A stretch of 64,000 nucleotides of DNA from Candidatus Latescibacterota bacterium (GTDB taxonomy: Bacteria; Latescibacterota; UBA2968; UBA8231): contig OZ244561.1 of assembly GCA_965217585.1 (NCBI GenBank), forward strand, positions 3,488,001 to 3,552,000, written 5' to 3'. Positions 9,940-15,195 of this stretch are shown here, piece after piece. Numbering within the stretch: the first letter of the stretch is position 1; every line of letters begins with the position of its first letter. The position numbers and the translations under genes were made by a program. The notes under the pieces were generated by a model, which searched no databases, was not told the DNA's origin, and worked only from the letters and a program-made list of their open reading frames with translations.

Positions 9940-11346
9940 TTAATCCCGATAGGAAATCCCAAAGAGAATCATCATCTCGTCTGTTGACAAGAAACCGAAA
10001 TTGACTTCTTGGTCGGTCGTGTTGTCGTAGGTTGCCTCTAACCTGAAGCCTTCCCCTCGCTCTAGGACCAGAGGGGAGTCGAATCTCAGGATCGGCGGGT
10101 GGTCCCAATCGTAGGCGGCGTAGATGAGCTCGCCGTCGTGCGCTCCCCCGATCATTTCGACCCGGAATTCTACCATGAGCTGATGAGCGTGCGAGAGTAG
10201 CTGCACAATGTGGGTCCGCTTGGAGAAGGTAAAATCCTTCTCTATGGTCGTCACCTCCCCGGCCGGCAGGGAGATATCAAGATTGTTCAAAGAAAAAAGA
10301 CGCGCCTCGTGCTCGACTTCAGACGGGTCGGCAAAGTGCAAGTTGGTATAGACCTCGCCGGTAACGGGCTGACTGGTGCGATTGACATAGTGCGAGTTGA
10401 GGTCGAGCAAAGTGTTCTTGGGCAGCCGTATCGCCACTCCAGGCGGCAGGGAGACATCAATGGAAGGCCATTGGCTGCCGGCGATTGGCAGGTGGTAAAA
10501 TTGCGTGAGTATGGTTGCAAGGACGTACTGGCCGGTGCCGTTGTGCAACTCGCGATATTCGTAGGGTTCCGGCATGCGCTCGGGAGGTATGTCGTCTTGG
10601 AATGTGTAGAGTAGGAAGTGGTGCGAGCCGGACTTCATAAAGATCTGGACGCGCTCTAGGAATATATCGTCTTCGTTGTTCAGCGGATGCACGACAAAGA
10701 TCTCGCGCTCGGAGTTGGGTTGTATCTCGAAAGGCGGCAAGTGCAGTTGGACGCCGTTTTCCGGCTCGGCTAGCGGCTTGAACTCCGGCTCCTCGTAGCG
10801 CGACTTGTCCTTCAAGAGGTCTGGGTCGGCCACGTGGCCTGTCTCCGGTGCGCCCGCCTCGATCCAAGCGCGGATAAAAGCCAACTCGCCGTTGGTCAGC
10901 GGCTTGTCGCCAAGGGGCATTATCTCCCCGTAATAGGGATGGTCGCCGTAGAAATGCTGCTGGTCGGGAGCGTTGAGCTTCTCCCACAAATAGCTCTTGA
11001 GAAGGCCGGGCATACCCTGTCCGAGGTCGCTGACCCGCATCAGCCCGTCGGCCGCGGCGGCCGCGTTCGTCGGAGCGGCACCCACGAGCTGTTCGTAGGC
11101 CACGTCCGGGGTGAGTACGAGGCTCGACTGACGCCCAAACGAGGTCCCAGCCGTGTGGCAGCTAACGCATTGGCCGGCGAAAATTTCCGTTTGGATAATA
11201 TCCCAAGTCGAATCGGACTCATGCACGGCCGTTTGGACCGGCCCCGGGCCGTCGGCACTACAGCCGACGAAAATCGAGCCTATGAGCAAGCAGCGGCGAA
11301 TTGTGCGGCTTGCGCGCTCGGGATATGTGGGGGGTAGCATGATCAC
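9940..11346 (-). CDS. Heme-c (CXXCH) plus PHM/DBH-like type II copper monooxygenase-domain lipoprotein
   Basis: FVGC lipobox-like motif, CVSCH, putative Cu ligands SHH, NSHY, SHAH, DEM. Confidence 0.7.
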   Translation of the reverse strand: MIMLPPTYPERASRTIRRCLLIGSIFVGCSADGPGPVQTAVHESDSTWDIIQTEIFAGQCVSCHTAGTSFGRQSSLVLTPDVAYEQLVGAAPTNAAAAADGLMRVSDLGQGMPGLLKSYLWEKLNAPDQQHFYGDHPYYGEIMPLGDKPLTNGELAFIRAWIEAGAPETGHVADPDLLKDKSRYEEPEFKPLAEPENGVQLHLPPFEIQPNSEREIFVVHPLNNEDDIFLERVQIFMKSGSHHFLLYTFQDDIPPERMPEPYEYRELHNGTGQYVLATILTQFYHLPIAGSQWPSIDVSLPPGVAIRLPKNTLLDLNSHYVNRTSQPVTGEVYTNLHFADPSEVEHEARLFSLNNLDISLPAGEVTTIEKDFTFSKRTHIVQLLSHAHQLMVEFRVEMIGGAHDGELIYAAYDWDHPPILRFDSPLVLERGEGFRLEATYDNTTDQEVNFGFLSTDEMMILFGISYRD

Positions 11347-11358
11347 CTGCGGGAGGAT

Positions 11359-12201
11359 TCAAATTCCGGCTTGGTCGATCAGGCCAGCCAAGTTCTGGCC
11401 CAGGATCAGGCGCTTGTGCTCGTCTGGTACGAACGTGCAGTGCGTGCGGAATGCCTCGAGCGCGTGCTGGTAGGTCATGTTGGTTCGCACTACCGGGTAG
11501 TCCGAACCCCAGCACAGCCGCTGGGGGCCGAAGTGCTCGTAGAGTTGGCGCACGATGTGGTGCGTATCCGAGTAGGGGTAATCCCACGAGACGTGCGAAG
11601 CGTAGTGAAAGCCCGAGAGCTTGATGTAGATGTTGGGCACCTCGGCCGAGCGCAGAATCTCCTGCAGGTTGGGATGCGGCACTTCCTCGCGCGCGTTGGC
11701 CCCGGCCATGTGATGACAGAGAAAAGTCACCGACGGAAAGCGCCGCGCCAGCTCGCGCAGCGCTGGCTGCCACTGCGGCCCTAAGGCCAAGCTGGCGATC
11801 AGGTTTAGATCGGCTGTGGTGCTGAAAAACGCGAGCCCCTCCTCGGAAGCAAACCACTCGGTGTCGCTTTTTACGTAGTGAGTATAGCCCTTGAGTTGGT
11901 ACTTTGCCGCGGCCGCTTTGAGCCGCTCGGCCGCACCGGGGGTGTGGTATTCTTCCGACCACGAGCAATCCACGTCGGCGAATTGCACCAATCGATCTGG
12001 ATAGGCACGGATTTGTTCGGCGACGTAGTCGTTGTTGTGGGGATTGTGCTCGATGCGGGCGCAGACCAACACGGCCTTATCGACGCCGTTGCGGTCCATT
12101 TCCCACAGCAGTTGCTCGGCCCGGCCGCGGCTGTTGTGATCGGGCACGGGTGGCTCGTAGGGCCAGTATTCCCAAGCGTGAGTATGCGAGTCGATTATCA
12201 T
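11359..12201 (-). CDS. Amidohydrolase family protein (Amidohydro_2)
   Basis: IIDSHTHAW, HHM, IKLSG, WGSDYPV. Start is ATG 12201; the ORF-track extension lies inside the IS. Confidence 0.88.
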   Translation of the reverse strand: MIIDSHTHAWEYWPYEPPVPDHNSRGRAEQLLWEMDRNGVDKAVLVCARIEHNPHNNDYVAEQIRAYPDRLVQFADVDCSWSEEYHTPGAAERLKAAAAKYQLKGYTHYVKSDTEWFASEEGLAFFSTTADLNLIASLALGPQWQPALRELARRFPSVTFLCHHMAGANAREEVPHPNLQEILRSAEVPNIYIKLSGFHYASHVSWDYPYSDTHHIVRQLYEHFGPQRLCWGSDYPVVRTNMTYQHALEAFRTHCTFVPDEHKRLILGQNLAGLIDQAGI

Positions 12202-13501
12202 CGAAAACCTCTTTAGGAGACGGTCGTCTTTAGGCGGCCGAGGAATAAAGAGCGGTCGGAGCGATGGGGCCTTGGGCCCCCTGAGCAAAGGCCATAAAGG
12301 GCTTGACTCGGTTTCGCGGAATGGGTCCCTTTAGCATGGTGAAGCGGATCATTCAAATCCAACTCCGGCCTACGCCCGATCAAGCGGCGGCGCTTAAAAA
12401 GACAATGTGCCGCTTTAATCAGGCGTGTAATTGGGTGACTCAACGGGCGTTTGAGCGCAATCTGGCCAACCGTTATGCCTTGCACAAGCTGTACTATTAT
12501 GCCGTGCGCCAGCAGTTTGACCTGCCTGCGCAAATGGCCTGTCTGACCTTTGCCCAAGTGGCCGCTGCCTATAAGCGCGACAAGAGCAAAAAGGTGTCGT
12601 TTCGTCCTTTGGCGTCGATGCCCTACGACGCGCGCCTTTTGCATTACCGAGGGCTGGACCGGGTGTCGCTTTCGACGCTGGACGGGCGCATCGTCGTGCC
12701 AATGGTGATGGGTGCCTACCAAGCCGAGCAGTTCGGCCACGTCAAGCGGTATGCCGAGTTGGTGCGACGGCGGGATGGCCAGTGGTTTTTGATGGCTACC
12801 GTCGAGTTCGACGAGGTGCCGCCGGTCGATCCCAATGACTTCCTCGGCGTGGATCTCGGTGTGGCGAATCTGGCGACGGACTCGGACGGTCAACAGCATT
12901 CGGGTGCCGACGTGGAGCGCGTGCGCGTAAAGTGCCAGACAATGCGTCAAAAGCTGCAATCGGCGGCCGACCAAGCTCAAAACACTCGCCGCCGCAAGCG
13001 CATCCGCAAGAAACTGCACCGACGCGCGCGCAAAGAAGCCAACTTCCGCAGAAACACCAATCACGTCCTCTCCAAGCGACTCGTTGAGCAGGCTAAAGGC
13101 ACTGTCCGGGGTATTGCCCTCGAAGACCTCAAGGGTATCCGGGATAGCATCCGGTTTCGCAAGCCTCAACGCGCCCGCATGGCGGGATGGGCTTTTGACC
13201 AACTGAGGCAGTTTATCGCCTACAAGGCGCAAGCTGCCGGCGTGTTGGTCGAGATGGTCGATCCCAAGCATACCAGTCAGAGGTGTGCCGAGTGTGGCCA
13301 TGTCGAGCGAGCCAATCGCTGCTCTCAATCTGAGTTTTGTTGTCGTCGCTGTGGGCTGAAAGTCCATGCCGATGTCAACGCGGCTCGGAACATCCGAGCC
13401 AGGGCTCTGTGTCAACGAGCCCATAGTTTCGGCCTCCCTACCGCTGCGGCGGCTGGGTAAGGCTAGGGACAAGCCGCCTCCTTTAGGGGGCGGTAGTTGA
13501 C
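12202..13501 (+). mobile_element. Non-autonomous IS200/IS605 (IS1341-type, tnpB-only) element
   Basis: Left-end hairpin CGGTCGTC-TTTA-GGCGGCCG (12221-12240) preceded by GAGA; right-end hairpin CCGCCTCC-TTTA-GGGGGCGG preceded by CAAG, element ending TAGTTGAC at 13501; target TCAT 12198-12201; no tnpA. Confidence 0.85.
12336..13460 (+). CDS. tnpB: RNA-guided endonuclease TnpB
   Basis: RuvC triad GVDLG / IALEDL / HADVNAA and Zn ribbon CAEC...CRRC all intact. Confidence 0.93.
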   Translation: MVKRIIQIQLRPTPDQAAALKKTMCRFNQACNWVTQRAFERNLANRYALHKLYYYAVRQQFDLPAQMACLTFAQVAAAYKRDKSKKVSFRPLASMPYDARLLHYRGLDRVSLSTLDGRIVVPMVMGAYQAEQFGHVKRYAELVRRRDGQWFLMATVEFDEVPPVDPNDFLGVDLGVANLATDSDGQQHSGADVERVRVKCQTMRQKLQSAADQAQNTRRRKRIRKKLHRRARKEANFRRNTNHVLSKRLVEQAKGTVRGIALEDLKGIRDSIRFRKPQRARMAGWAFDQLRQFIAYKAQAAGVLVEMVDPKHTSQRCAECGHVERANRCSQSEFCCRRCGLKVHADVNAARNIRARALCQRAHSFGLPTAAAAG

Positions 13502-13520
13502 AAGAAGCTCAAGAGGGTGT
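13330..13520 (+). ncRNA. Putative TnpB omega/reRNA: scaffold overlapping the tnpB 3' end and right end, guide from the flank AAGAAGCTCAAGAGGG
   Basis: Inferred from established TnpB architecture; the 5' boundary is approximate. Confidence 0.55.
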
Positions 13521-13740
13521 CGTTGTTAAGCGTCAGTGGCGTATGGCAAAAGATACTGAAAAAAAGGGTACTCTGACAAATCTGTCATTGATACCCATAA
13601 CGCATTTGTTTATATAAATCCGCGTCCTCGCTAGGCGCGGGTTCCAACTTGCGTCATCTGTGCTCAAAAGAAGACCGGGATGCGGATTCCGGACGCAGTT
13701 TCGCCACGGACAGGTGGACTGATACAACGAAGGGAGCGGT

Positions 13741-14445
13741 ATGAGTATACGAAACGTAGCGGTCATCACCGGGGCGGGACGCGGCATGGGTGCGGCCATC
13801 GCGCGCAACCTCGTGGGCCAAGGCTGGGCGGTCTCGCTGCTTTCACCCTCCGGAGCGGCCGAATCGCTAGCGGAGGAACTGGGCGGCATCGGGGTGACCG
13901 GTACCGTTACGGAGGAGGGAGACCTGCGGCGACTCGTCGATCAGACCATGGACGCGTACGGCCGCATCGACGGCGTCGTCAACAGCACGGGCCATCCGCC
14001 CAAGGGCAGTCTCCTAGATATCCCGGACGAGGACTGGCACGAGGGGCTGGATATCGTCTTTCTGAACGTGGTTCGCATGGCCCGGATCGTCACGCCGATC
14101 TTGGTCAGGCAGGGCGGGGGATCGATTGTCAACATCTCCACCTTTGCCGTCTTCGAACCCGAGCATCACTTCCCCGTTTCGACGCCCTGCAGGGCGGCCC
14201 TGGCGAGTTTTACGAAGATCTACGCAGATAACCACGCCAACGACAACATCCGGATGAACAATATCCTACCGGGTTTCATCGACAGCCTCCCGGAAGTGGA
14301 ATCGTTCAAGTCGCGCATTCCCATGGGACGTTACGGAACCGTGGAGGAGATCGCCGAAACCGCCGCCTTCCTCCTCTCTCCCGGCGCTGGATACATAACC
14401 GGACAGAACCTACGGGTCGACGGGGGCATTACGCGGTCGGTGTGA
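13741..14445 (+). CDS. SDR family oxidoreductase
   Basis: TGAGRGMG, NISTF, NNILPG, ITGQNLRVDGG. Confidence 0.9.
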   Translation: MSIRNVAVITGAGRGMGAAIARNLVGQGWAVSLLSPSGAAESLAEELGGIGVTGTVTEEGDLRRLVDQTMDAYGRIDGVVNSTGHPPKGSLLDIPDEDWHEGLDIVFLNVVRMARIVTPILVRQGGGSIVNISTFAVFEPEHHFPVSTPCRAALASFTKIYADNHANDNIRMNNILPGFIDSLPEVESFKSRIPMGRYGTVEEIAETAAFLLSPGAGYITGQNLRVDGGITRSV

Positions 14446-14532
14446 CGGATGTCGGCGGTCCGGGCGGCCTGAAGGTCCGTGCCGGTTGGGGACACCCGGT
14501 TCGGACGCGCACGAGCATCCATTGAAAGAAAT

Positions 14533-14564
14533 AAAAAACGCGGAGTAGACCAGCTACTCCGCGT
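14533..14564 (-). terminator. Intrinsic terminator of the sigma/Spy operon
   Basis: Perfect 11-bp stem ACGCGGAGTAG/CTACTCCGCGT followed by a T6 tail on the minus strand. Confidence 0.8.
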
Positions 14565-14589
14565 CGTGAAGGAAAACAGGAATTGGTGC

Positions 14590-15195
14590 TTACCGCCTGC
14601 CGCGCCAGCGCCTGCCACCGTAAAACGCCTCGTCCTTCATTGCTTCGAGTTTTTCGCGCTGCTCGTCGGTCAAGACGCTTTCCAAGGCCGTGCGGTGCTT
14701 TTGGCGCGATTCGCGCATCTCTGCGCGCTGCTCCTCGCGCAATTCCACGAGCTGTTCCTTCTGCTCGTCGGTCAGGTCCAGCCTTGAGAACGCGCCCTTG
14801 CCGCCGCGCCGCATGTCGTGATCCTTGCCGCCGCGTCGCATGTCGTGCCGATCTTTGCCCCCCCAGCCGCGCCGACCAAAAAATTTGCCGCGCTTACTGC
14901 GCATTTCTTTCATGGCCTCCTGCTGCTCCTTGGTCAAAATGTTCATTACGGCTTCGCGTTGCTCCTTGCCCATAGCGGCCATGGCCTCGCGCTGCTCGCG
15001 CATGGCTTCGCGGTGCTTTTCGCGCAACGCTTGCAACTGCTCCTGCTGCTCGTCGGTCAGGTCGAGATGTTCCAGCATTCTCATCGCGGGCTGCCGGTGT
15101 TCCCGCATCTTTTCCCCGCGCTCGGCTACGGCCACGGTGGCCAGTGCGCCGAGTGCCAGCGCGACACCGGCTGAGATGATCCATTTCTTTTTCAT
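14590..15195 (-). CDS. Spy/CpxP-family periplasmic chaperone
   Basis: Signal peptide, repeated LTDEQ/LTKEQ (LTXXQ) motifs, HDMRRGGK linker repeats. Confidence 0.82.
   Translation of the reverse strand: MKKKWIISAGVALALGALATVAVAERGEKMREHRQPAMRMLEHLDLTDEQQEQLQALREKHREAMREQREAMAAMGKEQREAVMNILTKEQQEAMKEMRSKRGKFFGRRGWGGKDRHDMRRGGKDHDMRRGGKGAFSRLDLTDEQKEQLVELREEQRAEMRESRQKHRTALESVLTDEQREKLEAMKDEAFYGGRRWRGRR

What the first reader, a model, noticed from the sequence alone, without database searches (positions are those of the whole stretch)
12195..13520. TnpB insertion sequence that lands on a start codon and supplies a replacement ribosome-binding site
Seen: tetramers GAGA (12217-12220) and CAAG (13470-13473) lie immediately 5' of the left- and right-end hairpins. 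Established: in IS608 these guide tetramers base-pair with, and so specify, the cleavage sites. Applying that rule gives TGAC for the right end (found, ending 13501) and TCAT for the target (found at 12198-12201, with the guide at +16..+19 as in IS608). TCAT is the reverse complement of ATGA, the start of the amidohydrolase gene, so the element sits exactly in front of the ATG. Read outward, its left end is ...TAAAGAGGTTTTCG-ATG, an AGAGG Shine-Dalgarno 6 nt from the start. Inference: this family may target ATGA starts in antisense orientation and keep or rewire host translation, a stealth-insertion strategy that needs no intron. TnpB is catalytically intact and would be guided to the empty site TCAT|AAGAAGCTCAAGAGGG.
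Basis: partly seen in the sequence, partly recalled or inferred. Interest (0 to 1): 0.8.

Follow-up and report, generated by a model that had tools for sequence, protein, structure and literature searches.

The report
Transposon family parked on start codons
A small TnpB-carrying jumping gene sits exactly between a gene's ATG and its leader, and about half of its relatives do the same in front of other intact genes, which suggests a mobile element that can occupy start codons without killing the gene.

Summary
A 1300-bp TnpB-only IS200/IS605 element (12202-13501) lies between the ATG of an Amidohydro_2 gene and its native leader. The IS608 guide rule fits both ends, and the left guide covaries with the target across the family (GAGA with TCAT, GGGA with CCAT, GAAG with TCAC).

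The family-level idea is largely supported. In the genus, 12 of 24 independent left junctions abut the start codon of a long intact gene, antisense. A sister genus gives 4 of 6. My null gives 2.4% of all YCAT sites and 11% of sites that disrupt no gene. The genes hit include single-copy ddl and hisD.

The replacement-RBS claim is not supported as a family adaptation. CCTCT is one arm of a covarying left-end helix, and SD-like cores are no commoner at start-abutting copies (4/12 against 4/12). Whether enrichment reflects targeting or retention is open, and expression is not shown.

Also unexpected: the antisense frame across tnpB is depleted of stop codons. In this copy a 419-codon antisense ORF ends 11 nt before the host ATG.

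The parts
11359..12201 (-). Host gene: Amidohydro_2 family amidohydrolase, 280 aa. Its ATG (12201-12199) abuts the element.
   Evidence: Orthologs of 280 aa with the same ATG occur in 19 loci. On the own lineage there are 0 singleton amino-acid changes against 8 synonymous singleton codons.
12198..12201 (+). Target tetranucleotide TCAT, the complement of ATGA. It is the left cleavage site and the inferred TnpB TAM.
   Evidence: Empty alleles. All 22 curated left junctions in the genus are YCAT except one CTAT, whose empty site in G000 is CCAT.
12202..13501 (+). TnpB-only IS200/IS605 (IS1341-type) element, 1300 bp, with no target duplication.
   Evidence: Thirty related copies occur in 12 of 31 genus genomes.
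12209..12215 (+). 5' arm (CTCTTTA) of the outer left-end helix. It overlaps CCTCT (12208-12212), which on the other strand is the AGAGG read as a Shine-Dalgarno.
   Evidence: All 7 pairs of this helix show compensatory changes, with 83.9% of cells paired against 36-52% when the partners are slid.
12217..12220 (+). Left guide tetramer GAGA at +16..+19.
   Evidence: Position 19 nt from the hairpin foot as in IS608. Position +17 covaries with target -4, matching the IS608 pairs A+16:T-3 and A+17:T-4.
12221..12240 (+). Left subterminal hairpin (IPL).
   Evidence: Of its 7 pairs, 4 show compensatory changes; 92.4% of cells are paired.
12246..12252 (+). 3' arm (TAAAGAG) of the outer left-end helix.
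12336..13460 (+). tnpB, 374 aa from the ATG at 12336. The RuvC D/E/D motifs and the CxxC..CxxC zinc finger are present.
13262..13501 (+). Inferred omega/reRNA scaffold region, overlapping the tnpB 3' end and the right end.
   Evidence: Consensus fold of 16 copies gives 59 pairs, 12 with compensatory changes. No Rfam family matches. Its role is inferred from ISDra2.
13470..13473 (+). Right guide tetramer CAAG.
   Evidence: It is invariant in 16 aligned copies. Under the IS608 register it pairs with TGAC.
13474..13493 (+). Right subterminal hairpin (IPR).
   Evidence: Compensatory changes occur at alignment columns 226/245, 228/243 and 232/240.
13498..13501 (+). Right cleavage site TGAC, the last bases of the element.
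13502..13740 (.). Native amidohydrolase leader and divergent intergenic region, now 1.3 kb from the ATG. The first 16-20 nt are the inferred guide of the element's RNA. A promoter-like site on the minus strand lies at 13579-13550.
   Evidence: The TATCTT hexamer is conserved in the empty alleles. The guide role is inferred.
12213..13472 (-). 419-codon ORF antisense to the whole element. It has a TTG start 4 nt after AAGGAGG in the right hairpin and a TAA stop 11 nt before the host ATG. Function unknown.
   Evidence: No Pfam family matches.

Best explanation
This is a non-autonomous, TnpB-only IS200/IS605 element. It was inserted by single-strand 'peel and paste' 3' of TCAT, a site specified by pairing with its own left guide GAGA. 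TCAT is the complement of ATGA, so the element landed exactly between the amidohydrolase ATG and its leader, with tnpB pointing away from the gene. The family's YCAT specificity makes every ATGR start codon a legal site. Insertions there are strongly over-represented among surviving copies. The most likely reason is that, in this orientation, the element does not abolish expression of the gene behind it. Transcription would come from the native promoter reading through the element, or from within it, and initiation would occur on the leader that the left end supplies. Shown: anatomy, exact junctions, the guide rule, the over-representation, and the intactness of the host genes. Inferred: continued expression, and retention rather than aiming. 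The AGAGG of this copy may serve as a Shine-Dalgarno. However, it exists because it is one arm of a structural helix of the left end, not as a conserved family adaptation. With no Y1 transposase in this genome, the copy is currently stranded.
For: Exact empty alleles: 19 of 19 orthologous loci. For insertions in other genomes, the left and right flanks map to adjacent bases in G000 at 9 sites, plus one approximate.

Guide rule: a 15-nt linker plus a 4-nt guide, as in IS608. GAGA or GATA goes with TCAT, GGGA with CCAT and GAAG with TCAC.

Excess at starts: 12 of 24 independent genus sites. The null is 2296 of 97073 YCAT sites (2.4%) at predicted ATGR starts, and 11% among sites outside coding sequence. 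Conditioning on the pentamer gives 2.7 expected, P = 2e-6. Counting 8 unplaced copies as non-starts gives 12 of 32, P = 8e-5. Local AT content does not raise the null.

Start status checked independently: my gene finder calls the junction ATG as the start in 7 of 10 cases. Pfam profiles begin at the N-termini: Ddl 5-125 on 1-121, HisD 22-428 on 3-410, sulfatase 12-336 on 1-301, PhyH, DUF3417 and NTP_transferase 2-235 on 1-243.

Replication: in a sister genus with TnpB 55% identical, 4 of 6 YCAT-type sites are at starts. Distant metagenomic relatives L170 and L176 also sit at starts.

Tolerance: ddl is the only match in G116 and hisD the only match in G012. Host ORFs keep full length. The amidohydrolase has 0 amino-acid against 8 synonymous singletons on its own branch. 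The same junction is present in contigs of three metatranscriptome runs and one DNA run, with no empty-site joints.
Against: No direct evidence of transcription or translation. The RNA-library contigs carry no strand, could be DNA carry-over, and leave the gene body uncovered.

The AGAGG is predicted to be paired in the antisense RNA, although that fold is no better than shuffles (z 0.17).

No conserved outward sigma-70-like promoter was found. Three of 22 copies, all of one subfamily, share a weak site 50 nt from the host junction; one further copy has a single weak match at another position.

One start-abutting relic (L004) sits on a gene that is broken in this genome.

Insertion ages are unknown and each start-abutting insertion was seen in one species representative only. 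Gene calls for the null come from my own crude finder (5135 genes, 83% coding). With an extreme bound of 6500 starts the P value rises to 0.013-0.027. The copies are related, and the genomes are mostly MAGs.
Confidence: 0.6

Rival explanations
1. Active aiming. The transposition machinery itself prefers translation-start regions beyond the tetranucleotide, for example through single-strand accessibility or extra contacts. On this reading the excess arises at insertion, not by selection afterwards.
For: The excess (50%) is several-fold above even the non-disruptive null of 11%. T at -5 is frequent, with TTCAT at 7 of 13 genus TCAT sites (counting the L004 relic) and 4 of 4 in the sister genus; IS608 is reported to have some selectivity there. 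Relatives that target TCAC also sit at or near GTG starts: L087 at the start of an NTP_transferase gene, and L133 at a GTG three codons before the conserved N-terminus.
Against: No conserved bases beyond YCAT appear in 24 nt on either side of 21 sites. AT-richness does not enrich for starts. Most TCAC-type copies lie at 3' ends of genes, in 5' UTRs or inside genes, as expected if only the tetramer is read. Intragenic insertions exist: L157 in a methylase, L146 and L136. The strand choice does not follow the lagging-template rule (4 of 13).
Confidence: 0.2
2. The left end has evolved a replacement ribosome-binding site, so that the element can take over start codons as a dedicated stealth strategy.
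For: This copy, its closest relative L051 and the relic L004 all read AAAGAGG(T/C)TTTCG|ATG in front of real genes. The sister-genus subfamily reads GGAGGTAAA|ATG (L127) or GGAGGAAAA|ATG (L145). The organism carries a CCTCC 16S tail, and 39.8% of predicted genes have an SD-like core, against 11.9% in a control window. The native amidohydrolase leader has none.
Against: CCTCT is not conserved; it is a helix arm that covaries with its partner. An SD-like core is present in 4 of 12 start-abutting and 4 of 12 other left ends (read). The C2-type left end has none, yet sits at two starts (L054, L055). The SD is paired in the predicted RNA.
Confidence: 0.15
3. No stealth. The insertions silence or cripple the genes; they are young, or the genes are dispensable in these symbionts, and the excess is a transient or sampling effect.
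For: The L004 relic fronts a gene with 291 nt replaced by 111 nt. There is no TnpA in this genome, no demonstrated promoter or translation, and each start-abutting insertion was seen in one species genome.
Against: If start insertions were as harmful as intragenic ones they should be as rare. Only 3 clearly intragenic cases were seen among about 44 sites. Single-copy ddl and hisD are intact. The amidohydrolase branch shows a purifying pattern. The junction recurs in runs of several studies.
Confidence: 0.1

Closest known systems
IS608 / ISDra2 (IS200/IS605 family, Y1 TnpA 'peel and paste')
   Same: Subterminal hairpins with no inverted repeats. Insertion 3' of a fixed tetranucleotide without duplication. 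A guide tetramer 5' of each hairpin foot, 19 nt from the left cleavage site. The same pairing register (+16 with -3, +17 with -4). TnpB with a right-end RNA.
   Different: No tnpA in the element or in this genome. The target is YCAT instead of TTAC or TTGAT. There is an extra covarying outer helix enclosing guide and hairpin. Half of the copies abut start codons, which I did not find reported for those elements.
IS1341-type, TnpB-only elements (non-autonomous members of the family)
   Same: A single tnpB flanked by family-type ends, in several diverged copies per genome.
   Different: The insertion-site habit at start codons, and the stop-depleted antisense frame.
IStrons (IS605-type element fused to a group I intron)
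   Same: A TnpB-bearing element that can sit in or at genes while sparing their function.
   Different: No intron is present: Rfam gives 0 matches at E<=1 in 11000-15000. The element would spare the gene by position and orientation, not by splicing.
Insertion sequences and small repeats that supply outward promoters or expression signals
   Same: A mobile end provides the sequence directly upstream of a host gene. This comparison is recalled, not tested here.
   Different: Here the junction is base-exact at the start codon, is recurrent, and is dictated by the target tetramer. No outward promoter was demonstrated.

Membership tests
IS200/IS605 family | Subterminal imperfect hairpins at both ends, no terminal inverted repeats | tested here: met
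   (covarying IPL and IPR)
IS200/IS605 family | Insertion 3' of a specific tetra/pentanucleotide, without target-site duplication | tested here: met
   Empty alleles in 19 loci and adjacent-base mapping at 9 other sites. YCAT at 21 of 22 curated junctions.
IS200/IS605 family | Cleavage sites specified by guide tetramers 5' of the hairpin feet | tested here: met
   Spacing matches IS608. Guide +17 covaries with target -4, and guide +19 with target -1, across the TCAT, CCAT and TCAC subfamilies. A few decayed guides (GAGC, TCCC, TGGA) do not fit.
IS200/IS605 family | Y1 (HUH) TnpA transposase | tested here: not met
   None in the element. PF01797 finds nothing in the own one-contig genome. Full-length copies occur in 6 of 31 genus genomes; the one inspected lies beside a different tnpB. 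The element is therefore filed as a non-autonomous member.
TnpB (RNA-guided nuclease) | RuvC D/E/D triad, zinc finger, OrfB_IS605 and TNB domains | tested here: met
TnpB (RNA-guided nuclease) | Right-end RNA whose 3' guide is the flanking DNA; TAM equal to the transposon target | tested here: inconclusive
   Conserved 3' structure with 12 compensatory pairs. No Rfam family matches. TAM and guide are inferred from ISDra2.
IStron | Group I intron fused to the element | tested here: not met
   No Rfam match at E<=1

The most novel reading that the evidence does not exclude
The family is built to be transparent when read from outside in antisense, and start codons are its safe harbour. In this copy the native promoter (13579-13550) would read into the right end. 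There the hairpin supplies AAGGAGG-N4-TTG. A 419-codon stop-free antisense frame would then carry ribosomes across the whole element and release them at a TAA 11 nt before the host ATG. This would shield the long leader from polarity and couple translation into the host gene. The depletion of antisense stops in tnpB would be the signature of selection for this. Long open antisense stretches of at least 350 codons occur in 13 of 22 genus copies. Summed over the 22 copies there are 44 such codons against 96.4 expected. Only 1.3% of host genes of like length are stop-free in that frame.
Probability: 0.2. Interest if true: 0.9.

Novelty: new variant of a known kind. Interest (0 to 1): 0.75.

Why it matters
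Insertion sequences are normally thought to survive only where they break nothing. IStrons were the notable way for a TnpB element to live inside genes. Here, a family's base-pairing target happens to be the complement of the start codon, and it persists in front of intact, even single-copy core genes. That would be a second route, based on position, to harmless residence. It would also rewire the 5' control of many genes, and it would mean TnpB's own cut site (TAM plus guide) lies on host start codons. The question is directly testable with reporters and with an unselected transposition assay. It also suggests a general survey: predict each IS605-family element's target from its guide, and ask which families match start or stop codons.

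Tried and rejected
Rfam scan of 11000-15000 at E<=1: no match.

Extended target motif: nothing is conserved beyond YCAT in 24 nt on each side of 21 sites.

AT-richness as the cause of the excess: rejected. P(start | non-disruptive) stays between 3% and 16% in every bin holding 100 or more such sites.

Lagging-strand rule: with the origin near 2.65 Mb and the terminus near 6.35 Mb by GC skew, only 4 of 13 placed sites have the top strand on the predicted lagging template. This gives no support, and synteny between genomes was assumed.

Outward promoter: the window scan found none inside the element. My scan of 22 copies found only a weak shared site in the C2 type and one further weak match at another position.

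Antisense ORF: no Pfam family.

Autonomous partner: loci holding Y1 genes showed no ends like this element, so no partner was identified.

RNA evidence: only contigs were available. Parts without cover, including the gene body in all three RNA runs, say nothing. No more reads could be laid, so no silent control stretch could be laid.

Loci L091-L101 and similar, from Acidimicrobiales and other lineages, have different inverted-repeat-like ends and were left out as another family.

Eight genus copies or fragments whose left junction I could not place were left out of the 24: L052/L086 (same site as C2), L058, L061, L064, L068, L070, L077 and L078. L067 was dropped as the same site as L066.

Metagenome relatives L170, L176, L178 and L179: no Pfam hit, so their start status rests on ORF length alone. 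L178's resemblance to a known enzyme N-terminus is only recalled.

Supplementary files of papers were not opened. They might hold insertion-site tables for other TnpB families.

Structure and complex prediction were not used; no claim needs them.
Full report
**What is there.** The window lies in a 7.3-Mb one-contig genome. Its relatives in public records are titled Candidatus Latescibacterota MAGs.

Between 12202 and 13501 lies a 1300-bp element with one gene, tnpB (12336-13460). Pfam gives OrfB_IS605 and the Cas12f1-like TNB domain. The RuvC D/E/D motifs and the zinc finger align to a solved Cas12f.

To its left, on the minus strand, an Amidohydro_2 gene starts with the ATG at 12201-12199. 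To its right lie about 240 nt of intergenic DNA and a divergent short-chain dehydrogenase gene.

Every coordinate in the finding is correct.

**Exact boundaries.** Orthologs of the amidohydrolase were found in 22 of 24 other genomes of the genus. In all 19 loci read, the sequence just upstream of the same ATG is the window's right flank...cttgagcttctt|ATGATAATC.

So the element sits between base -1 and the A of the ATG.

The genome holds two more copies (84% and 73% identical). All three end in GGTAGTTGAC and diverge right after it. It also holds a 31-nt left-end relic, described below.

**The guide rule.** In IS608 the left cleavage site lies 19 nt 5' of the hairpin foot, and a 4-nt guide lies directly 5' of the foot (passages read). 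A+16 pairs with T-3 and A+17 with T-4 (passages read).

The element here has the same geometry. Applying that register to GAGA gives TC?T, and applying it to the right guide CAAG gives TG?C. The observed sites are TCAT and TGAC.

Across the family the rule is borne out by covariation:
- GAGA or GATA goes with TCAT.
- GGGA goes with CCAT.
- GAAG or GATG goes with TCAC, in more distant relatives.

A few guides (GAGC, TCCC, TGGA) do not fit their site and look decayed.

**The family habit.** A DNA search found 30 copies in 12 of 31 genomes of the genus. I could place the left junction in 22, plus two more fetched later and the relic. After dropping sites shared by descent, that gives 24 independent sites.

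In 12 of them the CAT at the junction is the complement of an ATG that opens a long ORF. The host genes are:
- the amidohydrolase of this window;
- an enolase-superfamily gene (the relic);
- a solute-binding lipoprotein;
- a PhyH dioxygenase;
- an alpha-glucan phosphorylase-like protein;
- a lipoprotein;
- an ankyrin protein;
- histidinol dehydrogenase;
- a HlyD-type adaptor;
- a UVR-motif protein;
- a class I/II aminotransferase;
- a PcfJ-like protein.

For nine insertions in other genomes, G000 holds the empty site, with the two flanks mapping to adjacent bases; a tenth maps approximately. There the junction ATG opens ORFs of 168-500 aa. My own codon-model gene finder, blind to the insertions, calls that ATG as the start in 7 of 10 cases. 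Pfam profiles begin at these N-termini.

**The null expectation.** G000 has 97,073 YCAT sites. Of these, 2.4% are the complement of a predicted ATGR start. Among sites that do not interrupt a predicted gene the share is 11%.

Conditioning each observed site on its pentamer gives 2.7 expected against 12 observed, P = 2e-6. If true starts are 1.5 times more numerous than I called, P = 1.4e-4. Counting the eight unplaced copies as non-starts gives 12 of 32, P = 8e-5. With an extreme bound of 6500 starts the P value is 0.013-0.027.

Local AT content does not explain the excess, and no longer target motif exists.

**Replication in other lineages.** In a sister genus with TnpB about 55% identical, the TCAT/CCAT-type subfamily sits at starts in 4 of 6 sites. 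The genes are D-Ala-D-Ala ligase, a sulfatase, a periplasmic binding lipoprotein and an unknown protein. Two distant metagenomic relatives with TCAT targets also abut long ORFs.

Relatives whose guide specifies TCAC lie mostly at 3' ends of co-oriented genes, in 5' UTRs or inside genes. One sits exactly on the GTG start of an NTP_transferase gene, and one on a GTG three codons before a conserved N-terminus.

This pattern is what one expects if only the tetramer is read and survival decides the rest.

**Are the genes still working?** This is not shown directly. The indirect evidence is as follows.

In favour:
- The host ORFs are full length.
- ddl and hisD are the only copies in their genomes.
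- The amidohydrolase has 8 synonymous singleton codons and no amino-acid singleton on its own branch, among 19 orthologs.
- Contigs from three metatranscriptome runs and one DNA run bridge the same left junction, and no run shows an empty-site joint.

The contigs have no strand and may be DNA carry-over.

Against:
- The relic L004 reads tCATCGAAAGCCTCTTTAGGAGACGGCCGTC in front of an enolase-superfamily ATG. In 20 relatives of the genus (loci L026-L045), the orthologous genes have a different leader from this ATG. That gene is broken in this genome, with 291 nt replaced by 111 nt.

**The replacement RBS.** The organism has a CCTCC-bearing 16S tail, and an SD-like core sits upstream of about 40% of predicted genes. 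The native amidohydrolase leader has none. So the left end would add an SD rather than replace one.

CCTCT, however, is not a conserved feature. Left-end positions +8..+14 pair with a segment 3' of the hairpin, forming an outer helix around a 5x5 internal loop that holds the guide. All seven pairs of that helix show compensatory changes across 17 sequences. 83.9% of cells are paired, against 36-52% for slid controls.

One subfamily has GGCGT there and no SD at all, yet sits on two start codons. SD-like cores occur in 4 of 12 start-abutting and 4 of 12 other left ends (my reading). In the antisense RNA the AGAGG is predicted to be paired, though that fold is no better than shuffles.

**How transcription could reach the gene.** No conserved outward promoter was found. 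A promoter-like site at 13579-13550 on the minus strand, in the native intergenic region, has a second hexamer conserved in the empty alleles. It could read through the element.

**An unexpected extra.** The antisense strand of this copy is open for 419 codons, from 13472 to 12216. A TTG start lies 4 nt after AAGGAGG in the right hairpin, and a TAA stop lies 11 nt before the host ATG.

Long antisense open stretches of at least 350 codons occur in 13 of 22 genus copies. In contrast, only 14 of 1089 host genes of 330-450 codons lack the three sense codons that make antisense stops. Given their amino acids and the host's codon usage, the tnpB copies carry 44 such codons where 96.4 are expected, and many of the 44 lie at the gene ends.

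The 50%-GC copies of the sister genus still show about 320-codon open stretches. The copies are related, so no P value is given.

This may reflect selection for translatable read-through, an overlapping gene, or codon habits of tnpB.

**Mobility.** No Y1 transposase is found in this genome. Full-length Y1 genes occur in 6 of 31 genus genomes. No partner with matching ends was identified.

By analogy with ISDra2, the element's RNA would guide TnpB to TCAT followed by the right flank, which is the empty start-codon site (passages read). The 3' 240 nt show 12 compensatory pairs.

**Literature.** Five full-text searches and passages of four papers gave no report of IS200/IS605 elements that abut start codons, or of a TCAT TAM. 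Supplements were not seen.

**Verdict.** The element and its mechanics are ordinary for the family. The recurrent, base-exact residence on start codons of intact genes is real and, as far as I could find, undescribed. The evolved-RBS reading is weakened, and aiming against retention remains open.

Noticed in passing
G000:C1:4122245-4122275 (locus L004 1501-1531): A 31-nt relic of a C1-type left end sits exactly in front of the ATG of an enolase-superfamily gene. A type I restriction-modification methylase gene lies 82 nt upstream. Relatives have a different native leader, and the gene itself is broken in this genome.
   Followed up: yes
window 12213-13472, minus strand: A 419-codon ORF runs antisense to the whole element. 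Antisense stops are depleted in tnpB across the family (44 observed against 96.4 expected; 1.3% of host genes are stop-free in that frame). No Pfam family matches.
   Followed up: partly
L060 (G012), right junction: This copy's right end finishes in ...TTGAT instead of ...TTGAC. Read in antisense, that single base restores the TGA stop of the upstream gene, which in the empty allele overlaps the hisD ATG (tattgATG).
   Followed up: partly
L132/L151, L137, L069 (left junctions): Where copies lie at the 3' end of a co-oriented gene, the left end supplies a stop codon within 0-2 codons (for example ..AC|C TAA or ..T|AG), so the host protein loses only a few residues.
   Followed up: no
L087 (a Candidatus Fraserbacteria MAG), L133/L150, L178: Relatives with guide GAAG target TCAC. 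One abuts the GTG start of an NTP_transferase gene, and one abuts a GTG three codons before a conserved HpcH N-terminus.
   Followed up: partly
L002 (G000:C1:1751820-1753088) and L052/L086: Copy C2 has a disrupted tnpB (a frame break near codon 25 and an in-frame TAG). Its site is shared with another species, where part of the left end and the right end are deleted. It is therefore an old, decaying insertion.
   Followed up: partly
left ends of many copies, about 35 nt before the tnpB start: A conserved TTGAC(A/T) box, followed 17 nt later by a TATAxT-like box, lies so close to the tnpB start codon that the mRNA may be nearly leaderless. In the C2 type the same box read backwards gives the only outward promoter-like match.
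   Followed up: no
sister-genus copies (rows for G031, G114-G122 and others): Every tnpB match in that genus is reported with one TAA inside the aligned stretch. I did not check whether this is the true stop being read through by the alignment or a shared interruption.
   Followed up: no
L089 and L100 (Armatimonadota contigs): The tnpB reading frames there are interrupted after about 40 codons by the same GC-rich palindrome, possibly a small inserted repeat.
   Followed up: no
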